In this document: piece by piece, positions 9,205 through 59,553 of the stretch
Layout of the letters: the number at the start of each line of letters is the position of its first letter
How positions within the stretch are numbered: position 1 is the first letter of the stretch
DNA from: Schmidtea nova
Lineage: Eukaryota
Direction of reading: 5' to 3'
Assembly (NCBI GenBank): GCA_044892505.1
Contig: CM097882.1
Span: 120,590,001-120,654,000 of the forward strand
Length of the DNA stretch: 64,000 nucleotides
Position numbers and translations under genes: made by a program
The notes under the pieces: generated by a model
What the model saw: only the letters and a program-made list of their open reading frames with translations
What the model was told of the DNA's origin: nothing
Database searches by the model: none

Positions 9205-12200
9205 ATTATTATTATTATTACTATTATTATTATTATCCCAGCAAGTAAAATCAGTCTTTCAAAATTATGCTATCGATACACTGAACAGCAGAAAACCATT
9301 TATAAATTATGTTAATTTAAAATTATTTCAGATGTATAACATTCAAATACAATGTTTTGAAAGGTTTTTGCATGAAAAAGGAACATTCAGTGCCACTTTT
9401 TCAGTGGTTCCTTTTTCAGTGGGTTCTAATCCATTCCAGTCAACACATGATACACTTGTTCAATGAGACAAACAAAGTTATCCTTTATGTGTTTAATCAG
9501 ACGATAAATGTTACTCGTCAAACGTACCCCAATCAAAGAGCTGTTCTATACTATTGTGAAAAAATACAAGCATTATTAGAGAACAAAGACCAATCTCAGA
9601 TTTTATCTTTCCGGTAACTACGATCGAAATCGAATTTAAAAATTGTGTTAATCAAAATTAAATATTATCGGCGAGCCAGATACTCTAATCTTTGGCAATT
9701 AACCTTGGTTGAGGACAGATTTGTTCGAGTATCATATACTGATATAGACAGTTATCCACATAAATTAAATCAATCAATTCGAATCACAACCACTCACATC
9801 AAGGTGGCGAATCCAAGTAATAAAACTATATAATCCTCATCTACGGAAAATGAAATTTTGTGTGTAACTTTGTTAATAACAATTATCATCATAACAATAT
9901 TTATCATCATTCTCATATCTCTTATCATCTACAAAATTCGAATAACTGATAGATAGCCTACGAATAAATCCGAGACTCAAATACCTTGGATCGATTATGA
10001 GGAGACGTTTGTATAGTGAGATACAATTATTTTGCATGCAATTATAGTATATTAATAGTGTAGCATCTCATGACATTTTCTTTTATCAAGTTTCATATTA
10101 ATCTACACTCTTCGAAATGGGAAAATGTGTAAATTGATTTGATTGGCTAATACTAAGAAAGTGAGTTGTAGAAAAAGAGTCTATAAAATTAAAATGTGGG
10201 TATATAAGACAAATTTAAAAATCTTAAAACTTAAAACAAATTTTAAACTGAACAAATTTTAAAGAATTAAGAAAGTTTTAAATTAAACCGGTAATTTTAT
10301 ATTTTTTTATTTATACCGCTACCTACTTAAACATTATCCTATGGATACTCCATCTTAGTCCTAGCGTCAAAATTAAATTAAATCAAATTTAAATTATAAA
10401 CGTTTAGTAAAAATGGAATAGATACAATTGGCCAAGGAAACTTAAGACAGTTACATAAAGATGATGAGAAATCATGCCGACCAAAGGAAATTCCAGATGA
10501 CCAACAATTTACAAATCCCAAATTACCTAAGGGTGGATGATTGAAAAATGTGAATTCAATTGATCAACAACAACAGAAGATAAAAATTTCAAATAACAAA
10601 TGAATTAAAATTATCAAATGAGGAAGAATACTATGTCCATGTAATCAAAGGGACGGTAGAAATACTAGATGAAAATGGACAAATATGGTGGGAAATTTAA
10701 AAACTTACTTCATGTAAAATCAAGGAGCTATCAATCGGGAAAATACTGCGAGATGCAAACGAGGATGCCACAATTGTAGTGGAAGCAAGAACAAAAATCG
10801 AAAATCATGACGTACCCAGCAAGGAGCCAATACAGAAAGAAAGTCCTGAACTCCTACAAATAACAAAGGAAATGTTGAAGAGAAAATTATCGTTTATTAT
10901 GAAGGAAATGGATATAGAAGAAATCCGCAGTATGATATTATTCATTGATGCCGAATATGGGAGCACCGATACAGGAAAGATGATTCCCTTGACAGTGGCC
11001 ATCATGAATTATCATGAGAAAATTGTAAAAAAATGTCTTCTTGGCCACCATAGGAATACTCAAACATTTTAGCATAATCATCCATGGAATAACAGAGGTG
11101 GCCAGTCGAAATCAAAATGATCAGTATGAAGAAATGAAGGAGATCCAAAAACTTGCAATCGGGAAAATGCTAATAGGACATGACCTACATGCAGAGTTGC
11201 AATTCTTAGGAATATGGATCAACCATCTTTATGGCACCCGGGATCTGGCTACAGTTCAAGCCTTACAATTGAGAGGAGTAACAATAAGAGGAGAATGGTT
11301 CAAACTCAAAACCGTAATAAAGGAACTATATGGAGAAGAAATGCAAACGGGTATACATTCAGCTTTGGAGGATGCTAAAAGCATTCGAAAGATATATCTG
11401 GGACTCGAAAATCTTTGGATCGGGGATGTATCAATACCCAAGATAGGGCCATCGAGAAATATCCGTTACAAGAATATCAAGCTCTACAACATAGGGAATC
11501 GACATCCGAAATTCCCATCTCAGAAAGAAATTTAATAATCTCAGATGAGACAGACATGGAAGTGGAGGAAACTGATGCGATGGCGGAAATGATGAATCAA
11601 AAGTTAAAATGAGCAACGGAAACTAATTTGGAGAAAATGAAAGAGAATGTAGAAATTATTGAAGCCATTAAATCGGCGAGAATTCAATTATCGATGGAAT
11701 GTGGCCCAATGGAACGAAAGAAGAATCGCAAAAAGAAAGCTAAAACATCTAATATCGACTTTGGAGAAACACTGGCCATCAACGATGTAGTATATGAAAA
11801 AGAAGAAACGATTATCAGATATCAACATGGAGCAAAACGGCTGGAGATCAAAATGGACTAAAATTATATTAATTATATATGTGATTGTTGAGTAATTGTT
11901 AGGTAGAACTGTTGTGTTTTTAATAGAAATGTTAATTAGATGTTAGTTAGGAATGTTGTGTTTTTAATATAAATGTTATGTAACAGAAATATGTCAAGGC
12001 CCGAAAGAGTCTCCCAAAGAAAATGAATTGTGGGGACAATTGGGGTGCAGGTTATATGTCTATTGTATGCGTGTAATCACAATAAAATAACAACAATAAA
12101 ATAACAAAATTTGATTATGATATTATAAAAGTTTTATTGTTTAAACTTATTTAAATCCAAAACCAACAATTACAATACAATTACTTTATAATGACCTCAA

Positions 12201-15200
12201 CAATTTTCTTTGTAGTAATTATTTTCAGGAATAGGATCTTCTCTAATAATTGTTAATTGTTTCGATAGTAGTTTCGAGTGTAGTTAATTGTTTCTGTAAT
12301 TCTTTTATTTGTATCTTTAGATATATTTGGAAAACTTGAAATAAATAATAAAGTTGCTTATTTCAATAAATTTGGATGACTTGAAATATGACTTGAAATA
12401 TGACTTGAAAATATGAAATATGACTTGAAATATGACTTGAAATATGACTTGAAATATGACTTGAAATATCTTGATATCTTAGAGATTTTTTTTTAAATAA
12501 AGAATTTCAATTATTTGTGATTTGGCTTACTATAGCATTTGCTATAGCAAGTCAAATTCAAATTTTGAATTGAAATAATAATAAAAAATAAAAATAATGA
12601 AAATAATAATAAAAATAAAATTGACATACACACGAAATTATGGTGGGGGAACCGAACTATCATTTTCGACACTAACCATAAAATTGCTAAAAAAAAAACA
12701 AATTATCATACCAGTTTTTGGGTTCACAACACAACTTCCCCCTTTAAAATCGGAGGTTAACATTTGATTGAAAGAGAAAAACACTCACAGAATCACACCA
12801 AATTTACATTTTTAACGATAACAGTAACTTGAAACCCTTTTTTTGTTATGTTTCGTTTAGTTTTTTTTTAAGTTACAATTTAACACAAAAATTACATATT
12901 TACAAAGAAAAATAAAAGATCTGTACAAATAGCTATGTTGTGCCTGTGTTTTGCTTATGTATGTTTGTGCTTTTTACTTGAGGCATTTTCTGTAGTGTTT
13001 TTTTCTTGGGGTAGATTGTGTGAGGCGTTGTGTGTAATTTGATTGTTTTAATGATAGGGTTTTAATCTGCGTATGTTGATTCTAACTTTTCTATTTTTTA
13101 TCAATAATGTGCCCACGTTCTTGTTTAGTTCGAGAAGTTTGTAAGGACCTTCATATTTTGATTCAAAACCACTGGTAAAAGGTTTTTTTATTAAAACCTA
13201 ATCGACCATTAAATTTGTTTTTGTTTGTTTGCTGTCTTTGTCTGTGATGACTTCTTTTGTTTCGTTTTGGGTTGTTTGTGTTCTGTTCTTGTAAGTTTTA
13301 TCTGGGTTTTTGTAGTTATTTATTATGTTTGGGAGATTTGTTGAATGTCCGAAAGTTAATTGGCTTGGGCTTTTGTTGTTTAAGGATGAAGGGTTGTTTC
13401 GTAGACCAATTAAAATTTCTGCCAGTTTTTCTAACCAGTTCCTATCATTTGCTTTGGCTCTAATTGCCTGTTTTAAAGATCTATGTAGTCTTTCGACTTT
13501 GCCGTTGGACTGTTGTTGGACTGTTGGACTGTTGGACTGTTGTTCTGATTTTTTTTATTTTATATTTTTTGCAGTCCTTTGAATAAATCTGATTCGAATT
13601 GTCTGTCTTGATCACTGATGATTGTTTTTGGGTATCCATATCTTGCAAACCAGTTTAGTTCTATGTTTTCGCAGATAGTTTTGGCTGTAATTTCTTTTAT
13701 TGGTATTGCTTCGAACCAGTTTGTTTTGCGGTCAATCGTTGTCAACAGGTATCTGTAGTTGTTGTTTGGTGGAAGTGGTCCTACTAAATCCACGTGTACT
13801 GTCTCGAATGGTTCGGATTTGGGAAAATTTACTTTTGTTGTTTTGAATCTTTTTGTTGGTTTATTTTTCTGGCAGTGAAAACATGAGTTGACAAATTCTT
13901 TGGTGTCTTTCCTCATGTTTGGCCATACGACTTTAGTGTACATGAGTTAGTATGTAGCTTTTATTCCTGGGTGGTATATGTTGTGAAATTGGTTGATGAG
14001 TTCCATTCTGTGTTCATCAGGTACTATTAGTCTTATGTTGTTTTCGTTTGAGACATCGTACCAAATTCAATCAATCTCTTTTAGTATTAATGAGTTGATT
14101 TTTGGAAAGTTTTTTATTACTCTTTCTTGCTTGTTTCTCATTGTTTCTTGATTCACTATTGGGATCATGCTGATCGCGTTTGTTTCTGTTTCAATTAACG
14201 AAAGGGTATCTGCGCATATGTTTGCTGCTCCTGCTATATATTTTATTTCGAAATTGAATTGTGAAATGTAGTTTAACTGTCTTATTTGTCTTGGTGACGG
14301 TAATTTTATTTTGATTGCGTTTAGTAGAGGTTTGTGGTCTGTATATACCTCAAATTCTTTCCCTTCTAAGAGGTATTGAAAGTGTTTTATTGTATTGTGT
14401 ACCGCCAGCAGTTCCCTGTCAAAAGTGGAATATCGCATTTGGTGAGCTTTGAGTTTTTTTGAAAAAAATGCAATGGGTCTTTTTTCGTTATTTTTTTCTT
14501 GGTATATTGTACCTCCCATTGCTGTTCCAGAGCAATCAGTGCTGAGGATGTATGTTAGGTTTGGGTCTGGATAGTTTAATAGACTTGTGTTGGATAGGTT
14601 TGTTTTTGCTTTTTCAAAAACACTTTCTAGTTGTTTGTTCCAATTGATTTTGACGTTTCTTTTGTTGTTGTTTAGATCGTTTAGTGGTGCGAGTATTTCG
14701 CTACACTTTGGGATGTGTTTATGGTAAAAGTTTATCATTCCCATAAAACGTCTTAATTCTCTTGTTGTTTTATGAAGATGGAATTCCTTGATGGCCTTTA
14801 TTTTGTCGTCTTAAGGTCTTGTTTTATTTTCGTTTAGGATATGTCCCAAATACTTGACTTCGTGTCTTAGGAATTCGCATTTCTTAATATTTATTTTGAG
14901 ATCGTTATTGTTGAGGGTGTTTAGGATTTCCTTAATGTCCTGAATATGTTCGATTTTATTTGTTTATGCGATTAGGAGGTCGTCCAGATATGCAACCGTA
15001 TTCCTGTGGTTTCTCAGGATTTGGTCCATGAACCTTTGGAAAGTGGCGGCTGCGTTTTTCGAACCGAATGGCATTCGGTTGTATTCATATAATCCGATCG
15101 GCGCTATTATTGCAGATTTTTTGATGTCTTCTTCACGCACCGGAATTTGGTGGTATGCTTTTTGTAAGTCAATTTTAGTGAAGTAATTTGGATTATGTAT

Positions 15201-18200
15201 CCTGTTGATTATGTCGTTGATTATAGGTATGGGGTATTTGTCGGGTATTGTGATATTGTTCAAGGCTCTATAATCTCCGCATGCTCTCCATTCGCCATTT
15301 GCTTTTTCTTTTAGCATGAGCGCGGATGACCATTTTGAGTTGGAATGTTGAATTATGTTGTTTTCCAATAAATCGTCGAAAATTTCTTTGGTTATTGTGA
15401 GTTTTTTATTGTCCAGTTACCTTACTTTAGCGTGGACTGGGTTGCCATTTGTCATGATTGCGTGTTCTGTTATGCATTTGTTTGTGGTTTCTATTGATAG
15501 TTTATCTGTGATTGTAGGGTAGTTTTTTAGTAGGTCTTTGATTTCTTTTGGTAAAATATTGTTTGGGTTTGGGTTTTCGCAATTTGTTGTATTTTTGGTT
15601 TGTAAGCCTTTCGGTTGTGTTTTGATTGTGTTTGCGGTTATTACTCCGATATCACAGTTTGGTTGGTTGTTTAAGTTTTTGTAATTGGTTTTGTTGTTTA
15701 GGTATTTTTCTGTTTCGGAGTTATTTTGTAAAATTCTTTTTTTTCGGCAGTCTACAAGCAAATTGTATTTCGTTAAGAAATCGGCTCCTAAGGTTGCCTG
15801 TTTCACGTCAGCGATGATGAATTCCCAATTGTAGTTGGTTTTGTTTATGTTAATAGTTAATTGTTGTTTGCCGTAAGTTTTGATGTTGCTGCCATTTGCT
15901 GCGCACAGGTTGTAGTTTTCTTCTTTTAAGGATTGGAATAAATAACTAGGTAACAAACTAACTATTAAACCAGAATCAACGAGGAAATTTATTTTTTTGC
16001 TTTGTACCGTGAATGTTTCGTAGTCGCCAAATGTCGGTGCTGTCATTAGCGACTTTAATTGTTTTCCGGATTTTTGTGTTGGAAAGTACAAGGGGTGTTA
16101 CACTTAAAAGCTTTTTCACCGAATATATTATGGTTGTAAAACCAGTTTTGGTTTTGTTTGTTGTTGTTGTTTGCATTGTTTGAATTGTTGTAATGGTTGT
16201 TGAAGTTCGGTTTTTGTTCTGAGTAATTGTTTTGGTAATTTTGTTTGTACTGGTTTTTCCTTGCTTCTCTCGTTTGTGCTTCTTGCAGATCATTTCAAAG
16301 GGTTTTGTTCTCTGTTATGACTTTGTCGACTTTTTTTATTAATGAATTCAGTATTTTGTTAGTTTCATTGTTGGGGTTCTCTTGTTCTTGAATGATTTCT
16401 CGTCTGTTTTGTCCCGGGTTTTGGTTTCTGTATGTTTTACAGATTGTTGGGTATATCTCATCGTTTATTTTATCAGCTATTTCGGCAATCGTGTCTAGGT
16501 TTGTACAGTTGTTTGCGGCCAAAATGCGTCTGATTTCTTGTGGCATTGCCCTCATAAATAGGTCCTTTACGAATTCGCTTGATCCCGAGCTTGTTATTTT
16601 GGGTTGTAGGAATTCCAGTTTTGTTTTAAGGTGCCTTAAAAATTCGCTAGGTTTGTCGTTTCCTAGCTGAATGTCTTTTAGGCAAGATTTTAATACTTCC
16701 TTCTTGTTTATCTTATTTCTATTTAATAAGGTTGAGTACAATGTTTCGAAGGGGTCGTTATTTTTTCTATTTTTTCTATCCTGTCGCCGATTTCGTTTAG
16801 TATGTTGCTTGGCAATGCGGCGATTATGTGGGCGCATAGTGTCTTTGATGACTTGATTCCCGATAGAGTTAATGTTAGCTTGGCGAACTCTAACCATTTT
16901 TGAGGGGTTCCGTTTTCGTCGGTAAAAAAATTGGGAATGTTTGCCTTAGGGTTGATGATTGAGTTTATGGTGCTGTGCTCAAATGGTGTTTGTGAATTGT
17001 TTGAGTTTGTTTGGTTCGATGCCATTATTGTATTTTTGTTGTTTGTTTATGTGAAAGAAAATGAGATTGATTGAAGGATATAGCCTACTGTGTTCGACTA
17101 ACAAAGTCAACTATCCTTTATAGCTCTATCTATAGCTATTCTAAAAGGCGTAGTGATTGAAATAACAAAAATCGGTGAGTGTGTGTTGTGTTTTTTGCTT
17201 CTAACACCACTTTGTTGAGTAATTGTTAGGTAGAACTGTTGTGTTTTTAATAGAAATGTTAATTAGATGTTAGTTAGGAATGTTGTGTTTTTAATATAAA
17301 TGTTATGTAACAGAAATATGTCAAGGCCCGAAAGAGTCTCCCAAAGAAAATGAATTGTGGGGACAATTGGGGTGCAGGTTATATGTCTATTGTATGCGTG
17401 TAATCACAATAAAATAACAACAATAAAATAACAAAATTTGATTATGATATTATAAAAGTTTTATTGTTTAAACTTATTTAAATCCAAAACCAACAATTAC
17501 AATACAATTACTTTATAATGACCTCAACAATTTTCTTTGTAGTAATTATTTTCAGGAATAGGATCTTCTCTAATAATTGTTAATTGTTTCGATAGCTAGC
17601 AGTTTCTGTAGTTAATAGTGTAGTTAATTGTTTCTGTAATTTTTTTATTTGTATCTTTAGATATATTTGGAAGACTTGAAATAAATTATAAAGTTGCTTA
17701 TTTCAATAAATTTGGATGATTTGAAATATCTTGAAATATGACTTGAAATATGACTTGAAAATATGAAATATGACTTGAAAATATGAAATATGACTTGAAA
17801 TATGACTTGAAATATCTTGATATCTTAGAGATTTTTTTTTAAATAATCAATTTCAATTATTTGTGATTTGGCTTACTATAGCATTTGCTATAGCAAGCCA
17901 AATTCAAATTTTGAATTGAAATAATAATAAAAAATAAAAATAATGAAAATAATAATAAAAATAAAATTGACATTCACACGAAATAATGGGAGGGAATTGA
18001 ACTATCATTTTCGACACTAACCATAAAATTGCCAAATAAAAAAAACAAATTATCATACCAGTTGTTGGGTTCACAACAGTGATTATTTATAAATAAATAT
18101 TGCAATTCAGTCTCAGTTCATTAAATTGGGGCCCCACCGGTCAAACCCCATAACAAAAATAAATAAAACATAAATACCGAATAAATAAAATTTAGAATCT

Positions 18201-21880: not shown

Positions 21881-22149
21881 GTTATTATTATTTTTATTTT
21901 TATGTTATTTTAATAGTAATAATAATTATTGTTGTTGTTATTATCATTATTAGTTATAAGTGTAATTATTAGTATTATTATTATTAATATTACTATTAAT
22001 ATTATTATTATTAATACTGTTATACTTACTATTGCTAATATTATTATCACTAGTATTATCACTGTAAGGAGTTCCAAAACTCCTTTTAAATTAAAAATAA
22101 TTTAATTAATTAATTTAACGAGTAACATTTTAGATATTTTAGATTAATA

Positions 22150-22229
<80 letters not shown>

Positions 22230-23448
22230 CAATATCCTCATTAATATTAGAATTATAAATGCCTCAGTGTTTTAATATTCAGAATTAAACGAAAACATTT
22301 TGAAAGTGTGATAAAAATTTAATAAATATTATTGAAGAAGAGTTGAATTTAATGGCTTCTAACATGGCGACCACGACCACGGATCTTTTAATAAGCAGAC
22401 TGCTTCCTGGAAAATTCCACAAGGGTGATAATCTTGAAGATTTTATCAAAGATTGTCAGAGAATTTTCAGCGTTACGAAGACTTCTATCAAAATGCAACT
22501 AATTTTGACCACTACTCTTTTGGATAGATCTTTAATGGAGGATTATGAAGCTGCAGAAGGAAAAACGATTGAAGAGAAACTTTGTGGTGCTTTTTCAAAG
22601 CCAACTTCATTAATATAAGATTTAAAAGAAGCTTTAAGTTATGAACAAGGGTCTGATTCAGCCGAAATATTTATAGAGAAAATTAAAAAAGTAACGAAAA
22701 AAGTAAATGCACACAAATGGGATGAAGAAGAGATAGAAAAATGTCTTTTAATAAGCTGTTCAAGAGATAAAGAAGTTGAAATGAAAGATAAAAAAACTGC
22801 CGATGAAATTAAGTCAACAATCAAGAAATTAGAAAAAGTTGACAAAATTATGGGCCAAATTAATGTGTTGAAGACTTCTTCAGTTACATTCAACAACAGA
22901 AATTATGGAGATGCTGCTCAAAGAGGACTCGTAAATGGAAACAATACCGTGAAGCAAAGAAATCAGAATAAACGATATGTTGAATGCTGGACATGCAACA
23001 AAACGGGTCACATTAGTAGAGAATTTCAAATGAAAAAAGAACCCAGTGCTTTGCATGTGGAGTAGAAGGGCAAGTACGTCGAGAATGTCCAACAATTCAA
23101 TGTCAAAGATGTCAATTGCGTGGACACAAAGAAAATGATTGTTACACCAACTTAGAAAGAAGAAGATTTGGATTTAATCAGAATGAAGGAAACCATAATT
23201 ACTATCCAAATCGATCAATGAAATATCAATAGAGGAATCAGCACCAGCGAAAAACAGTAACAGCTATTGAAACTAATGATGAAATTATGCCAATGGACTA
23301 TTCGGGTGATTCTGAGGACAAATGTGATGACGCCCAGCACCCAAAAGTACACGCTTCGACATGGGAGGCAATGATCGGAGCAATTTATTAGGTAATTTTG
23401 ATGTTAGTGTAAATATTGGCCATATTTTTAATAATGATATAAATAATT

Positions 23449-23507
<59 letters not shown>

Positions 23508-26500
23508 TAAAACCTTTATCTAATATTTATTAGTAGTAATGTACTTAATTTTAGTAATTTTTTTAATGCTGACCAGACTTTATTAAATAATAATATTAAA
23601 AATTTTTAAAATCAAAAAGATAATAAATTTAAAGAAACAGAATTTAGTAAGGAAATAATAGCAGAAAAAGTTTATAAGTTCTTAAAAAAATTAGAGAATA
23701 CAGAGTGAAATGATAAAATATGGATGAATGAAATAATGGTTAATTCAAATTTTAAGGAGAAGCAAAATATATTCACTGACGAAGAATGGGAAGAGTTACA
23801 ATTGACATATAATAAAATTCAAGGTAGACCGAGTACAACTCTTGAAATTCAGGGCCATAAAATGGAAAGTTTGTTAGATACGGGAGCTAGAGTTAATGTT
23901 ATGACTAAAGCAGTTGTGGATAAATTAGAAAATGTTGAAATAATAAGGACGAACGATAAATTAAGATGTTGCAAATGATAGCAAACTGGAAACAGTAGGA
24001 AAGATACAAATTGATGTTATAATTGGTAATATAGCAAGAAAAGTAACATTTATTGTAGTTACAAATGTTGTCCCAGATATAATTGGAGGAGTGGAATTGC
24101 AGAAACAGTTTGGACTAGAATTAAGATATATAGAGAGTAAATGTGAAAGATCGAATGATTTTATATGTGAAATAAAAGCGAAATTTGGAAGAAATATTAC
24201 AAATACTGAAAGATTACAGAAAACAATAGAAACTTTAAATTTATACGAGAATAATAAGCTGTTAGAAATTGTAAAAAATATATAAATGTTTTTATGACAG
24301 ATAAGTGGGATATTGGATGTACGGATTTAATTCAACATAAAATTATTACAAAAGGTGAACCAATAATGATAAAGCCGAATAGACAGCCTATCAATTTAGA
24401 GGAGAAAATAAATAATGCAATAAAAAATTTAGAAAATAATGATATCATAAGGAAATGTAACTCGCCTTGGAATACACCTTTAGTATGCGTGTGGAAAAAA
24501 GAGAAAAAAGATATTAGACTTTGTTTAGACTTTAGGCAATTGAATAAAATTACCGAAAGACAAGCGTTTCCAATGCGAACGTTGAAGAAATATTAGATAC
24601 ACTACATGGATCTAAATACTTTAGTTCTATAGATCTCGGGAACGCTTATTATCAAGTAAGATTGGATATTGAATATCAAGAAAATACAGCTTTTCTACTA
24701 AACAAGGCCAATTTTGTTTTAATCGAAGGCCATTTGGTATTGCAGCTGCGCCAGGTACATTTCAAGAATTAATGACAAAAGTATTAAAAGATCTAAATAA
24801 AGAAGGGGTAATGGTGTATTTAGATGATATTTTGATTTTTACAAAAACTATAGAGGAACACTACAAGACTGTCGAAAGAGTGTTAGAGAAAATATTGGAG
24901 GCAAAATTAAAAATTAATCCTGAAAAGTGTCAGTTATTAAAAAATGAAGTTAAATTCTTAGGTCACGTTATAAACAGCCAAGGAATAAATACGGATAAAA
25001 GTAAAATTGAAGCGATCCAGTCATTTCAAAAACCAAAATGAATATAAAATTTGAGGAGTTTTTTGGGTATATGTAATTACTATCGCAGATTTATTAAGGA
25101 TTATGCAAAGAAATCAAGAATCTTAGAAAGTATATGTGGCAATAGCAATGAAAAAATGATTTGGACTGAGGAATGTGAAAAAGCCTTTGAAGAAATGAAA
25201 ATAGCATTAACAACAGCACCGGTTCTTGTATTCCCAGATTTCAGGAAGGAATTTATATTAGATACAGACGCAAGTTTTGATACGATTGGGGCCGTTTTAT
25301 CGCAAACTGATGAATGGGGATACGAGCATGTTGTAGCATATGGATCACATGTAATGGGCTCACACGAAAGAGGGTATTGCATTACACTAAAGGAACTTTT
25401 GGCTATTTACTATTTTTGTCGTCATTTCAATCATTATTTATATGGTAAACGATTTGTCTTACGCACTGATCATAAAGCGATTACTTTTATGTTAACGACA
25501 AAAAAGCCAATAACAGCACAATTCCAAACATGGATAAATTATTTAAGTAGTTTGGACATAAAAATGGAGTTCAGAAAAGGTGCTGCGCATACTAATGCAG
25601 ATATGCTTTCTAGAAATATCTGTGGGAAATGTGTACAATGTGCAATGGAGCATGAAAATCCAAAATCAGGAAAATTAAAAACTAGGTTGTTAACTTTGAT
25701 GACAGAAAATAACGGAGATGAATGGCAAAAGGATAGTGCAGAGATACAAAATATAAAAGATAGAATTAATAGGAATGAAAAGGATAAATTTTATTTAAAA
25801 AATAATATAGTCTACACAAATAAAGACAAAATATGGATACCAGAAATTAAAAGACGAGAAATGATAAAGAAAACACATTTGTTATTATGTCATGCAGGGG
25901 TAGAAAAAGTAATGAAATACATTCAGAACAATTTTGATATGTTAGACTTGGCAAAAGAAATAAAAGACGACTATCTCTACATGTGAATCATGCCAGAAAA
26001 ACAAAGTTATGACCACAAAGTTTAAAGAAGAAACCAAAGTCATTCAAGCTTCTGAACCTTTTGAAAAAATATACATGGACATCTATGGACCTTTAAGAGA
26101 AGCATTCAAGGGAGATAAATATATTTGTGCTATAATTGATCATTACAGTAAATATATTTCACTAACTGCTATTAGTAAACAGGATGAAAAAACAATAGGA
26201 AAAGTTTTGTTACATAAATGGATACTTAAATTTGGGGCACCTAAAGAATTACATGTAGATTGTGGAAAGAATTTCGAAGCAAATAGCATTAAAGAACTGG
26301 AAAAACAGCAGGTATAGAGTTAATATTTTCAAGTCAGTATCACCATAATACCAATGGTTTAGTTGAAAGACTGTTTCGAACTATTAGAGATTATATTAAC
26401 TCATCATTAAATGATGGAATAAAAGAAAATTGGGCAGAATTATTGCCTGATATAGAATACACTTTAAATGAGACAGCTTAGAAAACTACTGGAGTTAGCC

Positions 26501-29500
26501 CAGCTGAAATTATTTTTGGAAGAAAGATTAATAGATTGCAATGGCATGTTAATAATAAAATTAATAGAGAAGACATTACGCAGAGATTAGAAGACAAAAG
26601 ACAGGAAAAGGAAGTCAAAACAAAAAGAGAATTAGAAATTGGAGAAAGAGTGTTAGTAAAAAACGAAATTCGAAATAAAGACCACGAGAGGTATGAAGGT
26701 CCATATACAGTAAAAAAACAAATTCATGAAAGAAGTTACTTATTAGAAGACAAGAATGGGAAGACTATAGTCAGAAATATTGAAAGGATTAAACATTTTA
26801 AAGAAGAGGGATGTAAGGAGTTCCAAAACTCCTTTTAAATTAAAAATAATTTAATTAATTAATTTAACGAGTAATATTTTAGATATTTTAGATTAATATA
26901 ATTTTATATATATATGACCAATATCCTCATTAGTATTAGAATTATAAATGTCTCAGTGTTTTAATATTCAGAATTAAACGAAGACATTTTGAAAGTGTGA
27001 TAAAAATTTAATAAATATTATGGAAGAAGAGTTGAATTTAATTGCTTCTAACAATCACTATTATAAATATTATTACTATTGGTCGCGCCCGCTTATTAAA
27101 ATATTTTTAAAATTAATTAAATAAAAATAAAATAGTAAAAGGCGGGCTTGATTGCTGTGAGAGATTTTGGAGCGAGCCTGGAAGCCGTTAGACGGTCTTA
27201 TCAATAACTCTATAATTAATTTGTTAAAATGTCATGTAAAGGAGAATCCATGCCTAGTATCAATGAATCAGACAATGAAGAAGAAGACAACTTATCTATC
27301 AGTGAGGAATTTTCCACTTCTGATTATTCTTCGTTAAATCGACTGAAAAATTCAACTCTCACTAAAACAGTCTGTGAGACGATGGAACATAAAGAGGAAA
27401 TCTTCAACAAAGCATCAACATTAAAATCTATACATTGTGTACAAAATGAAAATGATACCGACAATTCCAATGATAGCAATTCAAATAATAGCGGGCTTTC
27501 ACGAGAATCATTAGAAAGTGATAAAGAAGATTACACTAGTCACATTTGTTCTGATAATTTCCACTATCAATGCAACAGTAGTACTTTGGAAAATCAATCA
27601 ACAATAATTGAGACCGAACATTCAGTTATAAGCGACATAATTCTATTAAATGAATTACAGGAATTTTCTGATCAAATAAAAAAACTTTAATTAATGAATT
27701 TATTGAAGATTAATATCGGTTGATTTTTAAAAAAACTTTTCAGAATAATTGATTTGTTTGTCTGTGTCAGGGAATTTTTAAATTATTTGGGCGAACTTTG
27801 AAAATTTAATTATTTTGCTTAGTGTGGAATTTTGGATTTGTTTTACTGTATTAATTGTTTATTATTTAGTGGCAGATTTAACTTTTAATTTAAATAATTG
27901 CTGAGTGGGATTTCGATTTATAGAATTGTTTCGGTTTCGGTTCTTTTTGAATTGATGAAAAAATTATCGAGTTTTTGGAATTAATTGAATTATTTTGGGT
28001 ATGTTGATTTAAAAAAGGGAATTTGAGTTTCGAATTCGTTTAATGAATTTTTGGGAAGAATGGAATTTTGAATTTTGCTTTCGTTTCGTGTACATTTGGA
28101 AATAAACTTTGGAATTTGATTTATTGTAATTGGTGGATTTTGATTTAAATTAAATGGAATTTCAATTTTTCGACTGCATTTAAAACGATTGCGTTGGATG
28201 GATTACTTTCTGTTGGTGTTCGAGATAATGATTGTGGCGTAGTTGCTACACAAAGAAAAGTCCCAGATAAAATGAAGGAAAAGAGTTCAGCTACAAGATT
28301 ATTTACCATAACTGAAAGTACTGGTTGCGTTAGGACCGGAATGATTCATGATTGCGGATCGCAAGTATGCCGTGCACAAGTGGAAGCCACGATTTAAATG
28401 CGAAATGTCCTGTGACATGATTTGTCGATGTTCTGCCGAAATTAATCAATTGTACACTCAATCAGCTGCAATGATGCCATTAGGCTGTTCAATGATCGCA
28501 TTTTCTTGTGATAAGGAGATGGATAAGCCACTGTTATTCAAAACCGATCCCAGTGGATTTGTAGCTGGTCGTCGAGCTGTTGCGGTCGGTGGAAAACAGT
28601 TGGAAACTAAAAGCTATAAGGAAAAGAAGCTTCGTAAAAATAAAGAAATCAATCGGAGCTGGATGCGACGAACCAACTGTCTTTATTATTATTAATAGTG
28701 TTACTACTAATACTACATCATCATTATTATACTTATGTCATTGTTATTACTATCATTGTAGTTACTATTATTATTATCCTTATTATTACAATTATTGGTG
28801 ATATTATCATCACCATTATTATTATATGATCATTGTCAGGATTTATGATAGAATATATTTATATATGTAGATTCGAGGACGAATCTTAAAAAAAGAGGGG
28901 AGATATGTTGGGGTTGTTAAAATTTACAGAAAATAAATATTAAATAGCACAATTCAAAAAAAATACAAAAAATTGGAAAAATAATAATTAATGTGAAAAA
29001 ATTAATTAAAAATTAAAAAAAATCAAAATAAAGTTTGAGCGGGGGAAACTGGTATGGGAGGATGCCAAATGATGAGACGAATTTTAATATGGGTATATAA
29101 AAATAAAAAAAGGTCCCCAGAAAGAAATATTTAGGAAATACAAATTAATTAAAATAATTAATTACTCTATAGGAAACCCGAGCTACTTGGGAACCCGAGC
29201 TAATGGGAAACTCGAGCTAGTAGGAAACCCGAGCGATATGGGAAACCCGGGGCATCAGTAAATTGATTAATTGAAATTAATGGAAAAATTGAAGGGTGCC
29301 CCGGGGAAAGAAGCCGCAAACCCATTTAGCGGCAACTCCTAAATTAATTTTGTAATTGACAGATCCATTAAGGTGTGACAGGAACAATCAAAAAAAAACA
29401 CTATAAAAGGCAAGGCAAAATTTCAGTACTCGCCAGTTGGTCTAAGCCAGTTTGTCGAGGCCAGTTGGTCGAAGAAAAATCTAAAAGAGTTAAACGAGGA

Positions 29501-46300: not shown

Positions 46301-49161
46301 TTATTCAAATTTGGATTTCTTATTTTTGTTTGAATCTCCATTATTATTTTCGTTTTTCCGTTTCTTTTTCTCAACCTTAACAACTTGTTCGACTGGAATA
46401 TCTGACACTGCATCCTTTTTGGCAGATTTCTTTTTATCAGCCTTGAAACTTTGCTTTCCTTTCTCGATTGCTACTTCTGACAATGATTCTTTTTTGATGG
46501 ATTTCTTTTTATCAGTATTCAAAATTTGGATTTCTTGCTTTATTGATTCTTTAGTACTCTCATTCTGCCTTTTTATTTGTTGTCCTTTCGCTTTCCTCCC
46601 AGTCTTTCTTGTTTTCCTCCTCTTCCTATAGGTCTTTTTGTAATCTTGTTCCTCGGCGGTCTCAGGCTGTTCCTTGACTTTCCTATGCTTGACAAATGAT
46701 CCCGTGTGGAGTTTTGGTTTCGGTCGGGCATCTGATGGCAAATGGTCACGAATACGATCGAAACACGCAACAAAGAAACCATTGCAAAGGTCATAACTGG
46801 GATTTGTGCGAATGCATTCTTTGAATAGCTTCTTACCACGGGTCATCCAGCTGTCCATCCAAATTGGACGCAGCTGGAACTCATCTCCAAATTTCTCGAC
46901 AATTTCCTCAACGACCGCCTCGTTCTCCTCGAGCGTCACGGAACAGGTCGAATAAACCACCCGCTTAACATTCGGGAACGAGAGGGCGTGACTGAGTAAC
47001 ATCGCCTGGAAATTGCGTAGGGATTGCAGGCGCTGTTCGTCAACCCGACTGTTATTGTTGCGTTCGGCCATTCGGTCCACCTGACGCATGATACCCGAGC
47101 CTGAGCAGCTGGGATCAAGGCAGATGTACCCGACGTTTGCATAACGCGGATCAGTCGGATCGACTTTCGTGAAGTCTTCCAATTGAGCACTAACGGTAAC
47201 AGATTGGGTTATTGCGTGGGGCTCACGGTAAATCGACAAGGCATGCTCGAGCATTTTGAATCGGGTTTCATCACGGTCAAATGCAAACAACGAGATCGGT
47301 TTGGATGGCTTTTTTTTCTGTGATAAAATCGAGAGCAGGTGAGTTGTTTTGTTTCCAGGAGCAGCGCAAGCATCAATGACGTCCATATCGGTGTCGGGAT
47401 CAAGCACCGCAGCAGGGATGCAGCTAGCCTTGTCCTGTATGAGCACCTTGCGTGCTCGCACTAATTTGTCCGTGTGTAGCACCGCCGAACTGTGGAACAC
47501 CAACAGATCCTCGTGTAAATGATAATCCGGCATAAAATCTCCTTCATTCAGTTCTTTTAACCATTCGAGAAACCTTGGAATATAATAAGAATTAATTTAT
47601 AGAATTTTTGAATTTAAAATTAATAGATTTAATAATTATTATCGATTCAATAATTGTAATTAATTTAACGTTAAAATATTTGACTTTGATATTTTCTGAA
47701 AAAGGAGTCGATTGTTTTACCGAAATTTATTTATTCGAGAAACCTATGGAAACAATTATAATCAATTTTATTTATTTTCAATTCTTCATTTTAAAGGAAC
47801 AGAAGAAAATTTATTTTTTCTAAGCACAAATTTTCGACACTGCCATTTTGAAAAAAAAAGACCTTAACGAAAAATAAGCCGGAGTTAAGTTACTTGTTCC
47901 AAGAGGTAGCTATCCTGGGATCAAGTTCTGCTGATGGATATAAGATAAATAGCCCTACGAGGAATCGGGTCACAAGAAATCCGAAAAGAAGATTGCATAT
48001 CAGTAGTTTAATAAATTTAGATTTCCGTGAATGATAAATAAAATATACATTGGAGAGGTCCTAACGCAAAAAAAATTTTTTTATGGAAATATTGGTATAA
48101 GATTTGGTATTATTTTCGGCGTAATAAATTCGTGACAATGCATTAATTAGTGATGTTAAGGGAAAATTTGATATATTACATTTAACATGAAAATAGCAAT
48201 AAAAATAATAATTCTGTAATCAATATCGATTTTTAATCGAAAATCAAAATAATAAAGTGAATAATTGTCATTATAAGCAATCGATAATGTTGATTATAAA
48301 GAATCTATAAATTAATATATCAATAATAAAAATTAATTTAATTATTGACGTGTTAAAAAAATCAATAATTGATTAAATATTCTTTTTAAATAAAATGTTT
48401 AATAAATTTTATAAATCAATAAAGCAGTAAAAAATAATATTCATAAATAATTTTAAAAATTTTGCTATTTTAGCAATTTTATTAATAAATCAAAGCAATT
48501 CATAAACTAATCAAATTCGACCATAATAGCTTACTGATTATATTTCACAGATTTGTCCTCATAATCCAACAGGTTGTACCCTTCATTAACAAAATGTTCA
48601 ATTGCTGCATGTCGTGTGATCAATAACAAATTGATTCTCACGTAAACTGGTAATTCAATGCTCTTATCAGTAGGCCGATAATGATTAAGGACTTCTTCAA
48701 TTGATTGTAACTTGTTCTCACTGATCAATTCATCAAGGATATCCTTGAATATTCTCATCTTGCTCACCAATGGGCAACCGGAGAGGTTGGATTTTGCTTG
48801 CCCGAATAGCATGTCATATATTTGCACCTTTATTCGACAGTTCTCACATCCGATTCCTCCACTGTTACACTCTCTTGTGTCACTGGTCTGCTGCTTTCTA
48901 CTAGTTTCTATTTGACCAAGTTTAGACCTATGGAGAATCTCAGTAATTATAGTTTTGTTCTTGATAGCTTCAGCTACGATTGCCAGTAATTTCTTCAAAT
49001 CCTATTTAACAAGAATAAAATTATATTAATTTGTACAAATTTGCATTTATTACACTTGTGAAATGAGATTGGAATAGTCCATTTTTTAGATTGCAAACGC
49101 CTGATGCTACTTTGCAATACAAAATTCCAGCTTCTTTATATAAATTAACTTCTGAAGGCAT
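46301..49161 (-). CDS. NSUN5: 28S rRNA cytosine-C5 methyltransferase NSUN5 (3 exons)
   Basis: Exons 49054-49161, 48535-49001 and 46301-47573, joined by GT-AG introns with consistent phases. Motifs LYKEAG, KKLLAIVAE, YDMLFG, LPVYVRIN, LIQDKASC, IDACAAPGNKT, LDPSCSGSG, YSTCS..EENE and GFFVACF; Lys-rich tail. Confidence 0.93.
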
Positions 49162-50490: not shown

Positions 50491-50996
50491 GGTGTAATTA
50501 CTAGTTACTCGCCACAGAGTAATGTTGGTATTGTAATTAATGGTTGAGCGCTATTTCAGAAATATAATTGACTGAGTATTTACGAGTTCAAAAACTGTCA
50601 ATATAAGATTTGTGCTCATTTTTACTTTATGGTTTCTTTATTTTTAAATACTTAATCATGAGCTATATTTGCTGAAAAAATCAAATTTGATGCTAATTTA
50701 GCAAAATATTACTGAAAAAATTATTGAAAAAATTCTTTATTATCAATAAGAAAATTATTAAATATTTCAATAGTAATAAATATTTTATTTTCAAACCATA
50801 CTTCAAACTCGTACTAATAAAGAAATAATAATAATGTTGATTGTTAATGCTATATTTTTATTATTGTTATTGTTATTGTTATTATTGTCATTATTATTAT
50901 TGGTCGCGCCCGCTCTTAAAATATTTTTAAAAATTAATTAAGTAATAATTATTTGGGTGCTTGATCGCTGTGAGAGATTGTGGAGCGAGCCTGGAA

Positions 50997-51038
50997 GCCG
51001 TTAGACGGTCTTATCAATATCTCTATAATTAATTTATG
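50997..51038 (+). other. genomic copy of a planarian-type spliced leader (42 nt, ending in ATG)
   Basis: GCCGTTAGACGGTCTTATCAATATCTCTATAATTAATTTATG; 35/42 identical to the Schmidtea SL-1 as I recall it. Its terminal ATG opens the ERI1-like ORF. Confidence 0.85.
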
Positions 51039-51840
51039 ATAATGAATCAGTATCCTAGCACATCTCAATCAAAAACTGATCAAACGAATACTGCTAATGT
51101 TAAATATAACAACAGCAAACAATATTCTTTCAACACAAATCGGATTAATAAAATGCCAGATGAACAATTAGTGGGAATTTTAAATTATCACGGATTGAAT
51201 GCAAAAGGTAGCCCAGAAATATTACGAAAACGTCTGAAAGAATATATGAAAATTCAAATGAACCCTGACAATAGTGAAATTTCCAGTCAAAACGATTCAA
51301 ATATATATATGCATACTTTCTCATAATTGACTTTGAAGCGACTTGTGATGAAATAAATGGTTTGAATTTCCAACACGAAATCATCGAGTTCCCCATCATA
51401 CTCTATGATGTTATTTTGAAGCGAAAAGTTGATGTTTTTCATGCCTACTCTAAGCCATTTATTAATCCAGCTCTCTCGAGACAAAGCAAAATCATTTCCT
51501 GATGTCCTAACAGAAGTCGAACAATGGCTCAATAAACATCACATGGTTGCGAAATCATTTGCTGTTGTCTGTGACGGCAATGCTGATATGGCAAAATTTA
51601 TGAGAATTCAATGTGATTAGTAATATTGAGTTTCCTTCTTGGTGTAGACAATGGATTAATATCATGAAGAGTTTCCGTCAGTTCTATACGGTTTCTGTCG
51701 ATGTCAAGTTGAACATGCAGAAAATGTTGAGCAGTTAAGGATTGGAATTCGAGGGTCGACAGCACAGTGGACTGAATGACGCTGAGAACATTTTACAAAT
51801 TACTGAAACGATGATGAATGACTGGGTTGCTTTTAAGTGA
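51036..51840 (+). pseudogene. ERI1: intronless ERI1 (SAP domain plus DEDDh exonuclease) copy with frameshifts (cargo 1 of copy 2)
   Basis: SAP domain INKMPDEQLVGILNYHGLNAKGSPEILRKRLKEY; exonuclease motifs IIDFEATC, HEIIEFP, SFPDVL, VCDGNADMAKF, WINI and GRQHSGLNDAENI. Three frameshifts, one internal deletion and one in-frame TAA. Confidence 0.93.
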
Positions 51841-52256
51841 ATTTAAAAATTTTGGAATTTAACTTGGAATTGAATGAATTATTAATGGGATTCTTTAAAA
51901 AACATTTTCGGATTATTTTAATGTAATTATTAGGAATTTTAATTTAAAACTTTAAGTTAATTTGGATACGAATTTTGTTTATTAGGAATTTTGATTAAAA
52001 ACATTTGGTTTAAATATGTTGTTGTTTATCTAAATTAATTTAATGGCTTGGTAAAATTAACTTTTGAATTGTTTTATTGCTGAGTAACGGTATGAATGAT
52101 AATCTCGTGGAGATATTTGATTTAAAAACTTTAATTTTAATCTCGTGGAGATGTTTGATTTAAAGACTTTGATTTGGAAATGTTTTGTAATGAACTTTGA
52201 ATTGGATTTAAATTGGAATAAATTATTCTCGTCTCGTTGTTAATGGTCTTGATGAA

Positions 52257-52907
52257 ATGTTCAAAAATCTTTTGAATAATATCTCAGTTGTTGGATACAG
52301 GGATCTTTGGAAATTGATTGTCGATCAGATTTCCGTTATCAATGATCAAAAGGTTCCCGATGAGTTGTCGTTGTTGGTGATGGAATTGTTTTTCAAACAC
52401 GCTAATACAAAATCACTATTGACTTGCGTTAAACTGATTGTAAACCACGTGAAACGGTTGATTCGAGAGGACGCATCAAATAGATTGGTGGAAATTGCAA
52501 GGTTAATTGTGAATAAATTGCCGTTTTCAACGGATATTCACGAGATTTTGCGGGCTTTTATTTGTTGCAAAGGAATGGGAATTGAAGGGAAATTTCAACT
52601 GGTCGAGCAATATATCAATGATGAGCATTTAGAAATGATACTGGAAAATTCACTCAACAATTATCTAACTAAATTTATCAATGAAACCTGGTTGCAATCT
52701 GATACAAATAATTTCTATTTGACTCTAAAAGAAATGATAAAATTGATAATGAAAGAGTTTCCAATAGCCAATCAGAGTCAATGGAATAAAAATATTGGAG
52801 AAAAGAATTTCAACTTGTCTATGATTAAATCTCGCGACCTCAGTCCAAAAAACAAGAAGAATAAAGAAAGCAATAGGAGCTGGATGCGCCGATCCAATTA
52901 TTATTAG
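52257..52907 (+). CDS. unknown alpha-helical protein ORF (cargo 2 of copy 2), fused in frame to the element 3' arm
   Basis: Uninterrupted 216-aa ORF with Leu/Ile-rich helical periodicity; the last ~15 aa come from the shared 3' arm and microsatellite. Confidence 0.45.
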   Translation: MFKNLLNNISVVGYRDLWKLIVDQISVINDQKVPDELSLLVMELFFKHANTKSLLTCVKLIVNHVKRLIREDASNRLVEIARLIVNKLPFSTDIHEILRAFICCKGMGIEGKFQLVEQYINDEHLEMILENSLNNYLTKFINETWLQSDTNNFYLTLKEMIKLIMKEFPIANQSQWNKNIGEKNFNLSMIKSRDLSPKNKKNKESNRSWMRRSNYY

Positions 52908-58387: not shown

Positions 58388-59512
58388 TCAAACGAGAGGA
58401 TAAACTGGCATCATCGCAACTTTGCAAGCATTTATGTTCCTGGGTAATCGGAAATATCCTTTTTCACCCCAAAATGTGCTCCAGCTATTCTTAATTATCC
58501 AGTATGGTATCCCGGTGGTTTCATCTGTCCCATATCCCACCAGTAATACGGCATGATTAAGCTCTAGTTTGTCGCATTCTTCTTCGTGGAAAATGCCTTT
58601 CGTATATCTCTTTAACGATTTAGTTGCAGATATTGCCACTGAAATTGGCCCAATTGTTACTAGAGCTTCTTTCAGTTTCTCTTCATCCCTTTCTGGCATT
58701 TGAACAAATCCAGTATCAGTTGCTACAACTTTGCTTTTGGCAAAACTGCATTTAGGATTCGGTTCTAATGTCTGACCGGATTCATAAGGGTAACTATTCT
58801 CACCCTCAATGCCTCCATTTGACTTAATATATGACAACGCATCTTGAACAAATCCACCATCACATCCAGCATCATTACCATCGCAATCTACAATCTGTTG
58901 TTCTGATAAGCTGATCAATCTTCCAGTTTTTCTCCAGATCTGGCCCTCTAACGTGCCTGTAGTAGCAAATGCATAGCATGAACCACACAATCCTTGATTT
59001 TTTACTTCGGTGACTGCACCTGCCTTGCGCCAGTCGAATGAATCTGGAAGGTCAATAGTCAAACCGGATGACAGATACGATGAGCCTGTGATGTTTGATA
59101 TTTTCAATTTGGTCAGTTGCGATAACTCTTCACTGCTCTGAAAATGTTTTTGTTATTGTATACTGCTAAATAAACAAAAAGTTACCCAATCACTCAAATG
59201 GTTAATTCCAATCTCGTATAATTTTTGGCCGTTTTTAAAAAGTTCATTGTGATGGTTGACCTCAAGTAAAGATGAGATAAAATTTAAAAACCTCGAATTC
59301 TCTTCATGCTGGGAACTATATGATTTATTATAACGTTGCTTAAAGCTTTGGAAATCTTCATCGTAACGAGATAAAAGAGATATCATATTTTCTAGTTCTA
59401 ACGAGCCGGAAAGGCCAGTATTGGGGACCGATTCATGATGGTCATGGACAGTTCTGGCTTGTGTGCTCACAGCAAATAACGCACAGATCAAGATTGGAAC
59501 TATCGAAATCAT
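58388..59512 (-). CDS. CTSL: cathepsin L-like papain-family cysteine protease (2 exons, 358 aa)
   Basis: Exons 59186-59512 and 58388-59137 with a 48-nt phase-0 GT-AG intron. Signal peptide and I29 prodomain; QGLCGSCYAF, LNHAVLLVGYG and WIIKNSW catalytic motifs. Confidence 0.95.
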
Positions 59513-59545
59513 AATGTAAGTATATTCAGTGAAGACAAAGTTCCC

Positions 59546-59553
59546 TATTTATA
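59546..59553 (-). promoter_or_regulatory. candidate TATA box of the cathepsin L gene
   Basis: TATAAATA on the minus strand ~34 nt upstream of the ATG; weak evidence in an AT-rich genome. Confidence 0.3.

What the first reader, a model, noticed from the sequence alone, without database searches (positions are those of the whole stretch)
50997..51038. Spliced leader at the same junction in both elements: possible SL-mediated strand transfer
Seen in sequence: a 42-nt GCCGTTAGACGGTCTTATC...TATG whose ATG is codon 1 of the ERI1 ORF; a near-identical copy at 27184 precedes the other cargo. Neither is followed by GT, so neither is an SL RNA gene. From memory, unverified: 35/42 identical to the Schmidtea mediterranea SL-1. 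Inference: the element may carry its own SL copy that acts like a retroviral R region, letting a cDNA made on any SL-capped mRNA jump onto the element's 5' arm. That would make the whole trans-spliced transcriptome mobilisable. Alternatively, the 5' arm is the upstream flank of SL RNA genes that recombined with cDNAs.
Basis: partly seen in the sequence, partly recalled or inferred. Interest (0 to 1): 0.85.

Follow-up and report, generated by a model that had tools for sequence, protein, structure and literature searches.

The report
Retrotransposon LTR traps spliced-leader mRNAs
The 42 bases are this flatworm's own spliced leader, built into the terminal repeat of a jumping-gene family with about 2,000 repeat copies, and directly behind it sit the front ends of dozens of different host messenger RNAs, likely because the shared leader lets the element's copying enzyme hop between its own RNA and leader-capped host messages.

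Summary
Confirmed and extended. The 42-mer is 41/42 identical to the exon of a true SL RNA gene in this genome. The two window 'elements' (27080-28675, 50901-52896) are solo LTRs of a BEL/Pao retrotransposon family: TG..CA ends, 5-bp TSDs, tRNA-Met PBS, PPT, gag-pol in some copies, and 2,159 LTR 5' ends. The '5' arm' is the LTR's first ~100 nt (inferred U3), not SL-gene flank. SL follows it in 59 of 63 LTRs, ahead of 34 different first cargos. For 8 of 10 cargos searched a parent gene was found. In all 8 the cargo starts exactly at an AG acceptor near the gene's 5' end, and cis-introns are removed. Three cargos occur with both SL types, and mutated SL 5' halves are shared across unrelated cargos, which shows crossovers inside the SL. 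Likely mechanism: SL-guided strand transfer (about 0.7). It is untested at RNA level. SL-less sister families also capture cDNA, so SL is not required for all capture. Nine literature searches found no description. The scan has noted SL-in-LTR and BEL/Pao LTR mosaics in other genomes (unchecked notes).

The parts
50901..52896 (+). Solo LTR B of a BEL/Pao family (1,996 nt, TGG...CCA), 5-bp TSD ATTAT/ATTAT inside an (ATT)n tract
   Evidence: Same termini as paired LTRs flanking PBS/PPT in full-length copies
50901..50996 (+). First 96 nt of the LTR (the '5' arm'), inferred U3
   Evidence: Follows the PPT in 3' LTRs; no match to SL-gene flanks beyond short AT-rich words; transcription start not mapped
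50997..51038 (+). Host spliced-leader exon, type B; inferred start of R
   Evidence: 41/42 to the SL RNA gene exon in L066
51039..51834 (+). First cargo: 5' part of an ERI1-family exonuclease mRNA, starting at the parent's TAG acceptor; frameshifted, with 42- and 41-nt deletions
   Evidence: Parent L077; best PDB matches human ERI1, E 8e-60
51835..52236 (+). T-rich spacer shared in part with other LTRs of the family
52237..52829 (+). Second cargo: mid-gene spliced fragment (1,029-nt GT-AG intron removed), not at an acceptor, short similarity at both ends; lies in a 228-codon open frame that runs to the LTR end in the gag frame
   Evidence: Parent L448
52830..52896 (+). LTR 3' end with AATAAA at 52860 and terminal CCA
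   Evidence: AATAAA within the last 60 nt in 58 of 90 LTRs
27080..28675 (+). Solo LTR A (1,596 nt), TSD ACTAT/ACTGT
27184..27223 (+). SL exon type B with a 2-nt deletion in the terminal ATG
27224..27685 (+). First cargo of LTR A: 462 nt from the 5' end of an unnamed host gene, starting at its TAG acceptor (452/462 identical)
   Evidence: Parent L092
28345..28674 (+). Second cargo of LTR A: proteasome-subunit fragment; 110-codon frame open to the LTR end
   Evidence: Pfam Proteasome E 1e-12

Best explanation
The two window copies are solo LTRs of a BEL/Pao retrotransposon family whose LTR carries the host spliced leader about 100 nt from its 5' end, followed by the 5' end of a spliced host mRNA starting at its splice acceptor, likely captured because the shared leader serves as the homology for reverse-transcriptase strand transfer. 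Inferred steps: (1) element RNA starts at or near the SL and ends past the SL of the 3' LTR, so SL plus cargo form a long R; (2) an SL-capped host mRNA is co-packaged; (3) tRNA-Met-primed minus-strand synthesis leaves the element RNA and runs onto the host mRNA; (4) it copies to the leader, and the SL-complementary cDNA end pairs with the SL in the 3' LTR RNA and continues into U3; (5) both new LTRs read U3-SL-new cargo; (6) recombination between LTRs leaves solo LTRs such as these. A second, PBS-proximal site takes mid-gene fragments by ordinary microhomology switching and keeps them in frame with gag.
For: Shown: LTR-PBS-internal-PPT-LTR in 12 of 13 same-region SL pairs fetched; 10 of 12 have LTRs 99.6-100% identical with the same cargo in both. 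PBS is 18/18 complementary to tRNA-Met(CAT). Exact 5-bp TSD in 39 of 49 solo LTRs. Pao gag/RT/Peptidase_A17/DUF5641 in an SL-bearing copy. SL at the U3 end in 59 of 63 U3-anchored LTRs, with 34 first-cargo clusters. 8 of 8 parents found have AG exactly at the junction; AG frequency in the window is 0.046 per site. 71 of 71 non-parent loci starting at those junctions have U3 upstream and none has the parent's upstream sequence. Introns of 61, 51 and 42 nt removed precisely. Three cargos occur with both SL types, one type-A copy keeping the parent allele that the type-B copies lost, so capture recurs. Multi-change SL 5' halves not found in any of the 6 SL genes are shared by 5, 4 and 2 unrelated cargo families. 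In the L278 family the 5' half differs 0.138/nt from the host SL, the 3' half 0.000 and the cargo 0.007. U3s 98% identical carry type A or type B with different cargos.
Against: Transcription start, poly(A) site and cDNA intermediates were not observed. The excess divergence of the SL 5' half is not general: higher than the 3' half in 3 of 8 families, lower in 4, equal in 1; Wilcoxon p = 0.074 over 48 families. Linkage of derived 5' halves to U3 is modest (0.888 vs 0.861 identity, permutation p = 0.033). In-SL crossovers could come from element-element recombination after capture. SL-less sister families also hold host cDNA in their LTRs (enolase and an EF-hand fragment). Two of 10 parents were not found. 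An AG acceptor at a first coding exon does not itself prove trans-splicing; the L326 acceptor also has a cis donor about 50 nt upstream.
Confidence: 0.72

Rival explanations
1. Passenger leader: RT copies a host mRNA to its capped end and jumps to the U3 boundary without SL pairing; the SL is simply brought in with each cargo, and in-SL crossovers arise later between element RNAs.
For: It gives the same U3-SL-acceptor junctions. U3/SL junctions vary by short GAAGCC-like duplications. SL-less sisters capture cDNA. 5'-half excess divergence is not general.
Against: The SL starts at the same U3 boundary in the sampled copies. In the L245 family 20 of 20 fetched copies carry a derived 5' half or a one-letter variant, and 10 of 14 do in the L278 family with cargo about 99% identical to the parent. 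This suggests the element's SL was copied at capture.
Confidence: 0.16
2. Splicing makes the junction: the element first took up pre-mRNA or DNA with the outron and was then trans-spliced, or an element-borne SL acts as splice donor onto host pre-mRNAs.
For: Junctions at acceptors are expected. LTR-element RNAs can be SL trans-spliced (C. elegans Cer1, PMC3315495, passages).
Against: 0 of 71 element copies keep the parent's upstream sequence. No U3-SL copy carries the SL intron: of 22 SL+GT matches, 6 are SL genes without U3 and 16 are LTRs whose cargo starts with GT or ATGGT; the intron-start pattern finds only 5 SL genes plus 1 chance hit. A trans-spliced element RNA would still need an SL-to-U3 transfer.
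Confidence: 0.07
3. DNA-level recombination between LTRs and separate SL-bearing processed pseudogenes made by other retroelements.
For: Relict-SL retrogenes are common in dinoflagellates (PMC5585692, passages).
Against: All 30 of the first 30 genomic SL-core loci have the U3 arm. No free SL-headed retrocopy of the 8 parents was found among the loci examined. Cargos are 5' fragments without poly(A).
Confidence: 0.04
4. The 5' arm is the upstream flank (promoter) of SL RNA genes that recombined with cDNAs.
For: None found.
Against: The five SL-gene upstream kilobases tested share only short AT-rich words with the arm (six genes viewed). The arm follows a PPT and begins LTR pairs.
Confidence: 0.01

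Closest known systems
LTR-mediated retroposition (Tan et al. 2016, PMC5131818; abstract and 12 passages read)
   Same: Spliced host mRNA fragments inside an LTR element, chimeras of several genes, further rounds as non-autonomous elements; Pao/BEL examples are given there. The second cargo site here fits that model.
   Different: There the retrocopy replaces part of the internal ORFs and switch points are short similarities (median 6 bp) that can occur anywhere. Here cargo sits inside both LTRs, and the first cargo begins at a fixed landmark, the SL/acceptor junction, in 8 of 8 cases.
BEL/Pao retrotransposons (de la Chaux and Wagner 2011 as recalled, PMC3118150; passages, which report Schmidtea 'Flow' families)
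   Same: Pao gag, Peptidase_A17, RT and DUF5641 domains; LTRs, PBS, PPT, TSD.
   Different: The passages seen mention no SL or host cargo in LTRs. Placement in Flow or another superfamily was not tested.
Relict-SL retrogenes of dinoflagellates (PMC5585692; passages)
   Same: Genomic SL in front of intron-less host sequence marks an mRNA intermediate.
   Different: There the carrier is unknown (copia proposed, direct evidence lacking) and whole genes are recycled. Here the carrier is identified and 5' fragments stay inside its LTR.
SL fragments associated with LTR/LINE elements in parasitic flatworms (PMC12582326; passages)
   Same: 597 loci with partial leaders next to mobile elements, read as trans-spliced retrotransposon transcripts.
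   Different: No fixed SL position in an LTR and no host-mRNA capture is described in the passages seen.
Burro giant Gypsy elements of planarians (PMC6431247; passages)
   Same: Planarian LTR elements with host-like domains, including a ubiquitin/SUMO-like one, in the polyprotein.
   Different: Gypsy rather than BEL/Pao, over 30 kb, extra domains internal; no SL mentioned in the passages.

Membership tests
BEL/Pao LTR retrotransposon | Direct LTRs with TG..CA ends and TSD | tested here: met
   12 of 13 pairs; 39 of 49 exact 5-bp TSDs
BEL/Pao LTR retrotransposon | PBS complementary to a host tRNA and PPT | tested here: met
   18/18 to tRNA-Met(CAT); purine tract before 3' LTR
BEL/Pao LTR retrotransposon | Pao-type gag-PR-RT-RH-IN | tested here: met
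   DUF1759, zf-CCHC, Asp protease, RVT_1, Peptidase_A17, DUF5641 in an SL-bearing copy; RT and integrase motifs in 6 of 8 pol-bearing regions read. The 12 paired copies fetched first lack pol; the window copies are solo LTRs.
BEL/Pao LTR retrotransposon | RT phylogeny / superfamily placement | not tested
   No reference RT set on hand
SL RNA gene | SL exon followed by GT donor, intron hairpins and Sm-like site | tested here: not met
   Window copies lack them; true genes L065-L070 have a GT donor, hairpins and a U-rich Sm-like motif (motif recalled)
SL RNA gene | Exon sequence equals this species' SL | tested here: met
   41/42 to type B
LTR-mediated retrocopy (Tan 2016) | Introns removed from host fragment | tested here: met
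   61, 51, 42 and 1,029 nt GT-AG introns
LTR-mediated retrocopy (Tan 2016) | Retrocopy replaces internal ORFs between LTRs | tested here: not met
   Cargo lies within both LTRs; HSP90 and ubiquitin pieces in the internal ORF are shared with sister families
LTR-mediated retrocopy (Tan 2016) | Short microsimilarity at switch points | tested here: inconclusive
   Seen at the second cargo of LTR B; not measured systematically; the first-cargo 5' junction is the SL itself
TRIM | Short LTRs and small non-coding interior (recalled definition) | tested here: not met
   LTRs median 1.7 kb, interior 3.1-3.6 kb with long ORFs
SL-gene-targeting non-LTR elements (SLACS/CRE/NeSL, recalled) | Non-LTR element inserted in SL gene arrays | tested here: not met
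   Dispersed LTR element; no SL intron or SL-gene flank beside copies
SL-guided strand transfer (proposed) | Element RNA has SL at both ends; cDNA transfers within SL | not testable with these tools
   Only contigs of runs of unrecorded kind were available; fossil crossovers are consistent

The most novel reading that the evidence does not exclude
This retrotransposon has made the host's universal mRNA leader its R repeat, so any SL-capped message can complete its first strand transfer. The family therefore samples the 5' ends of the trans-spliced transcriptome again and again, spreads them in some 2,000 LTRs, and builds its Gag-Pol N-terminus from in-frame host fragments (frame open at least 100 codons into the LTR at 44 of 50 PBS sites, against 1 of 100 in the other frames).
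Probability: 0.55. Interest if true: 0.9.

Novelty: new variant of a known kind. Interest (0 to 1): 0.82.

Why it matters
It links trans-splicing to retroposition by a concrete route: a constant mRNA 5' tag gives a retroelement a general landing pad, which ordinary microhomology capture lacks. That bears on the open question of what carries SL-tagged retrocopies in trans-splicing lineages, and it can be tested with 5'-end RNA and cDNA-intermediate sequencing. The LTRs are a fossil record of which genes were trans-spliced, and with which leader, in heritable cells. They also put thousands of host-gene fragments inside transposons, which would confound gene annotation, SL-gene calling and read mapping, and could feed transposon-silencing small RNAs against host genes (untested).

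Tried and rejected
Rfam scan of the window at E<=1: 0 matches. SL-gene-flank hypothesis: rejected. Element-borne SL RNA gene: none found. Helitron, TIR and Penelope-type readings: dropped once LTR pairs, PBS, PPT and TSDs appeared. Sequencing runs: no RNA holder listed. Laying four runs of unrecorded kind on parent L272 gave a contig in X2 joining type-A SL letters to the acceptor, and the 61-nt intron skip in all four runs. Both forms also exist as element DNA, so this does not show trans-splicing of the parent. Parents not found for two cargos: 0 of 9 matches and 0 of 20 loci read out of 40 listed. Metagenome scan for the U3-SL junction: 0. Low-gap-penalty alignments are noise beyond the first blocks; only those blocks were used. 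Papers not held: Rossi 2014 and Zayas 2005; full-text search for the SL core: 0 papers. No Pfam hit for parents L278, L326, L092.

Full report
Observation. The 42-mer lies at 50997-51038 and a second copy at 27184-27223, each behind the same ~100-nt arm. The 19-nt core has 1,195 exact copies in the 1.25-Gb genome and the reversed control has none. A search for SL followed by a GT donor gave 22 matches. Six are SL RNA genes of three types, with GT donor, hairpins and a U-rich Sm-like motif (motif recalled) and no arm upstream. The other 16 are arm-bearing copies whose cargo happens to begin with GT or ATGGT. The 50997 copy is 41/42 identical to the type-B exon and 35/42 to type A. So it is this species' leader. 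The organism appears to be a freshwater planarian from the leader sequence as I recall it; the two primary papers were not held.

What the arm is. All 30 of the first 30 SL-core loci carry the arm, and many come in same-strand pairs 4-5.5 kb apart. Of 13 such pairs fetched, 12 are LTR-interior-LTR and one is two inverted solo LTRs. In 10 of the 12 the LTRs are 99.6-100% identical and carry the same cargo. LTRs run TG..CA, median 1.7 kb. Of 49 solo LTRs with a mapped end, 39 have an exact 5-bp TSD, 15 of them not simple ATT/TAA words. The PBS is 18/18 complementary to tRNA-Met(CAT) and a purine tract precedes the 3' LTR. The 12 paired copies have a 3.1-3.6 kb interior without pol. Longer SL-bearing copies encode Pao gag, protease, RT, Peptidase_A17 and DUF5641. 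Of 8 pol-bearing regions read, 6 show RT and integrase motifs and one has a single uninterrupted frame. The genome holds 2,159 exact LTR starts and 317 PPT-LTR junctions. The window copies, 27080-28675 and 50901-52896, are solo LTRs.

Cargo. In a sample anchored on the LTR start, not on the SL, 59 of 63 LTRs have SL at the end of the arm (56 type A, 3 type B; 3' end intact in 41), followed by 34 different first cargos. Over 155 arms held, which include cargo-biased loci, 151 had SL and there were 51 clusters. The unbiased loci come from roughly the first 100 Mb of one contig. I searched the genome with 10 first cargos. A parent was found for 8: ERI1-family (L077), the LTR A gene (L092), a WD40 gene (L272), L278 (HECTD1-like by recall), a PPR/mS39 gene (L309), L326 (RRM-like by recall), a RING/TRAF gene (L403) and a LEM gene (L434). 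In all 8 the cargo begins directly after an AG (5 TAG, 2 CAG, 1 AAG) preceded by a T-rich tract, 0-29 nt before an ATG, with no arm within 1.5 kb. AG occurs at 4.6% of window positions. All 71 non-parent loci that begin at these junctions have the arm upstream; none keeps the parent's upstream sequence. GT-AG introns of 61, 51 and 42 nt are removed. Two parents were not found. The second cargo of LTR B is an internal contrast: a mid-gene spliced fragment, not at an acceptor, with short similarities at its ends.

Evidence on mechanism. Capture recurs. Three cargos occur with both SL types, and for the LTR A gene the type-A copy keeps a parent allele that the type-B copies lost. Arms 98% identical carry type A or B with different cargos. 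Crossovers fall inside the SL. Multi-change 5' halves absent from the six SL genes are shared by 5, 4 and 2 unrelated cargo families. In the L278 family the 5' half differs from the host leader at 0.138 per nt, the 3' half at 0 and the cargo at 0.007. In the L245 family 20 of 20 fetched copies carry a derived 5' half or a one-letter variant. Against: the pattern is not general (5' above 3' in 3 of 8 families, below in 4; Wilcoxon p = 0.074 over 48 families); linkage to the arm is modest (p = 0.033); and later element-element recombination could give the same crossovers. AATAAA lies within 60 nt of the LTR end in 58 of 90 LTRs, which suggests a long R made of SL plus cargo; this is inferred. 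SL-less sister families also hold host cDNA in their LTRs, so the clade captures mRNA anyway. The SL adds a route that yields precise mRNA 5' ends. RNA-level proof is lacking.

Model. Shown: architecture, identity of the leader, acceptor-precise and intron-less cargo, repeated capture, in-SL crossovers. Inferred: transcription start and end, co-packaging, and that SL pairing drives the transfer at the moment of capture (about 0.72). Rivals: homology-independent end jump with a passenger SL (0.16), splicing-made junctions (0.07), DNA recombination with SL retrocopies (0.04), SL-gene flank (0.01).

Comparison and novelty. It is a BEL/Pao family by domains and termini; RT phylogeny was not run. 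It works like LTR-mediated retroposition (PMC5131818, abstract and passages) but differs in cargo position and in the fixed SL junction. Related reports: relict-SL retrogenes with unknown carrier (PMC5585692, passages), partial leaders beside flatworm LTR/LINE elements (PMC12582326, passages), SL1-spliced Cer1 RNA (PMC3315495, passages), Burro (PMC6431247, passages). Also read in passages without a relevant description: PMC10899757, PMC11410931, PMC8629364, PMC4558846, PMC12460157, PMC3118150, PMC12801592. Nine full-text searches showed, in listings and abstracts, no account of an SL fixed in an LTR capturing host mRNA 5' ends. Subscription papers, Repbase entries and supplements were not seen and could hold one. 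Earlier scan notes, seen after my reading was formed, report SL inside LTRs and BEL/Pao LTR host mosaics in other genomes; they are unchecked and are not counted as support. Verdict: real, a new variant of a known kind, interest 0.82.

Noticed in passing
50 PBS sites in fetched loci (SL family and SL-less sisters): The gag frame stays open across the PBS into host-derived LTR sequence: median 209 codons against 11 in the other frames; at least 100 codons in 44 of 50. The internal ORF begins with HSP90 and ubiquitin fragments.
   Followed up: partly
L146-L163 (G000:C1): Sister BEL/Pao families share the PBS (1,592 exact copies in all), lack SL in 17 of 18 regions scored (the exception is an SL-family copy), and carry host cDNA in their LTRs. 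A CGCGTCTGTGTGCGC hairpin motif from their LTR start recurs behind the first cargo in 23 of 90 SL-family LTRs.
   Followed up: partly
window 51087 and 51479; L077, L079: Two GT-started segments (42 and 41 nt) of the uninterrupted ERI1-like parent ORF are missing in the window copy. The 42-nt one ends CAA in the parent, CAG in a copy that keeps it, and is absent in others: likely cryptic splicing during passage through element RNA.
   Followed up: partly
L032, L034, L035, L039, L041, L042: An FKBP-domain fragment (Pfam FKBP_C in L034; FKBP6/shutdown-like by recall) is the PBS-proximal cargo of one young subfamily. With ERI1 this makes two small-RNA-pathway-like cargos; no enrichment test was run.
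   Followed up: no
G000:C2:408.59-411.65 Mb (L065-L070): Six SL RNA genes of three types; the third type (L070) was not seen in the sampled LTRs.
   Followed up: partly
sampled LTR flanks: 67 of 118 5' flanks lie in (TAA)n/(ATT)n tracts; tandem element arrays at C1:34.77 Mb and 139.09 Mb.
   Followed up: no
G000:C1:510.09 Mb onward: 458-bp tandem array of tRNA-Met(CAT) genes; 1,034 matches genome-wide.
   Followed up: no
window 22063-27053 (+) and 11885-18078 (-): Two decayed LTR retrotransposons with gag/pol-like ORF fragments (Gypsy-like by recall); the first ends 27 nt before LTR A.
   Followed up: no
window 46301-47596 (-), 58388-59548 (-), 7986-9141: RNA methyltransferase-like ORF and cysteine-protease-like exons (names recalled); a C/A-rich tandem repeat between 170-nt direct repeats.
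   Followed up: no
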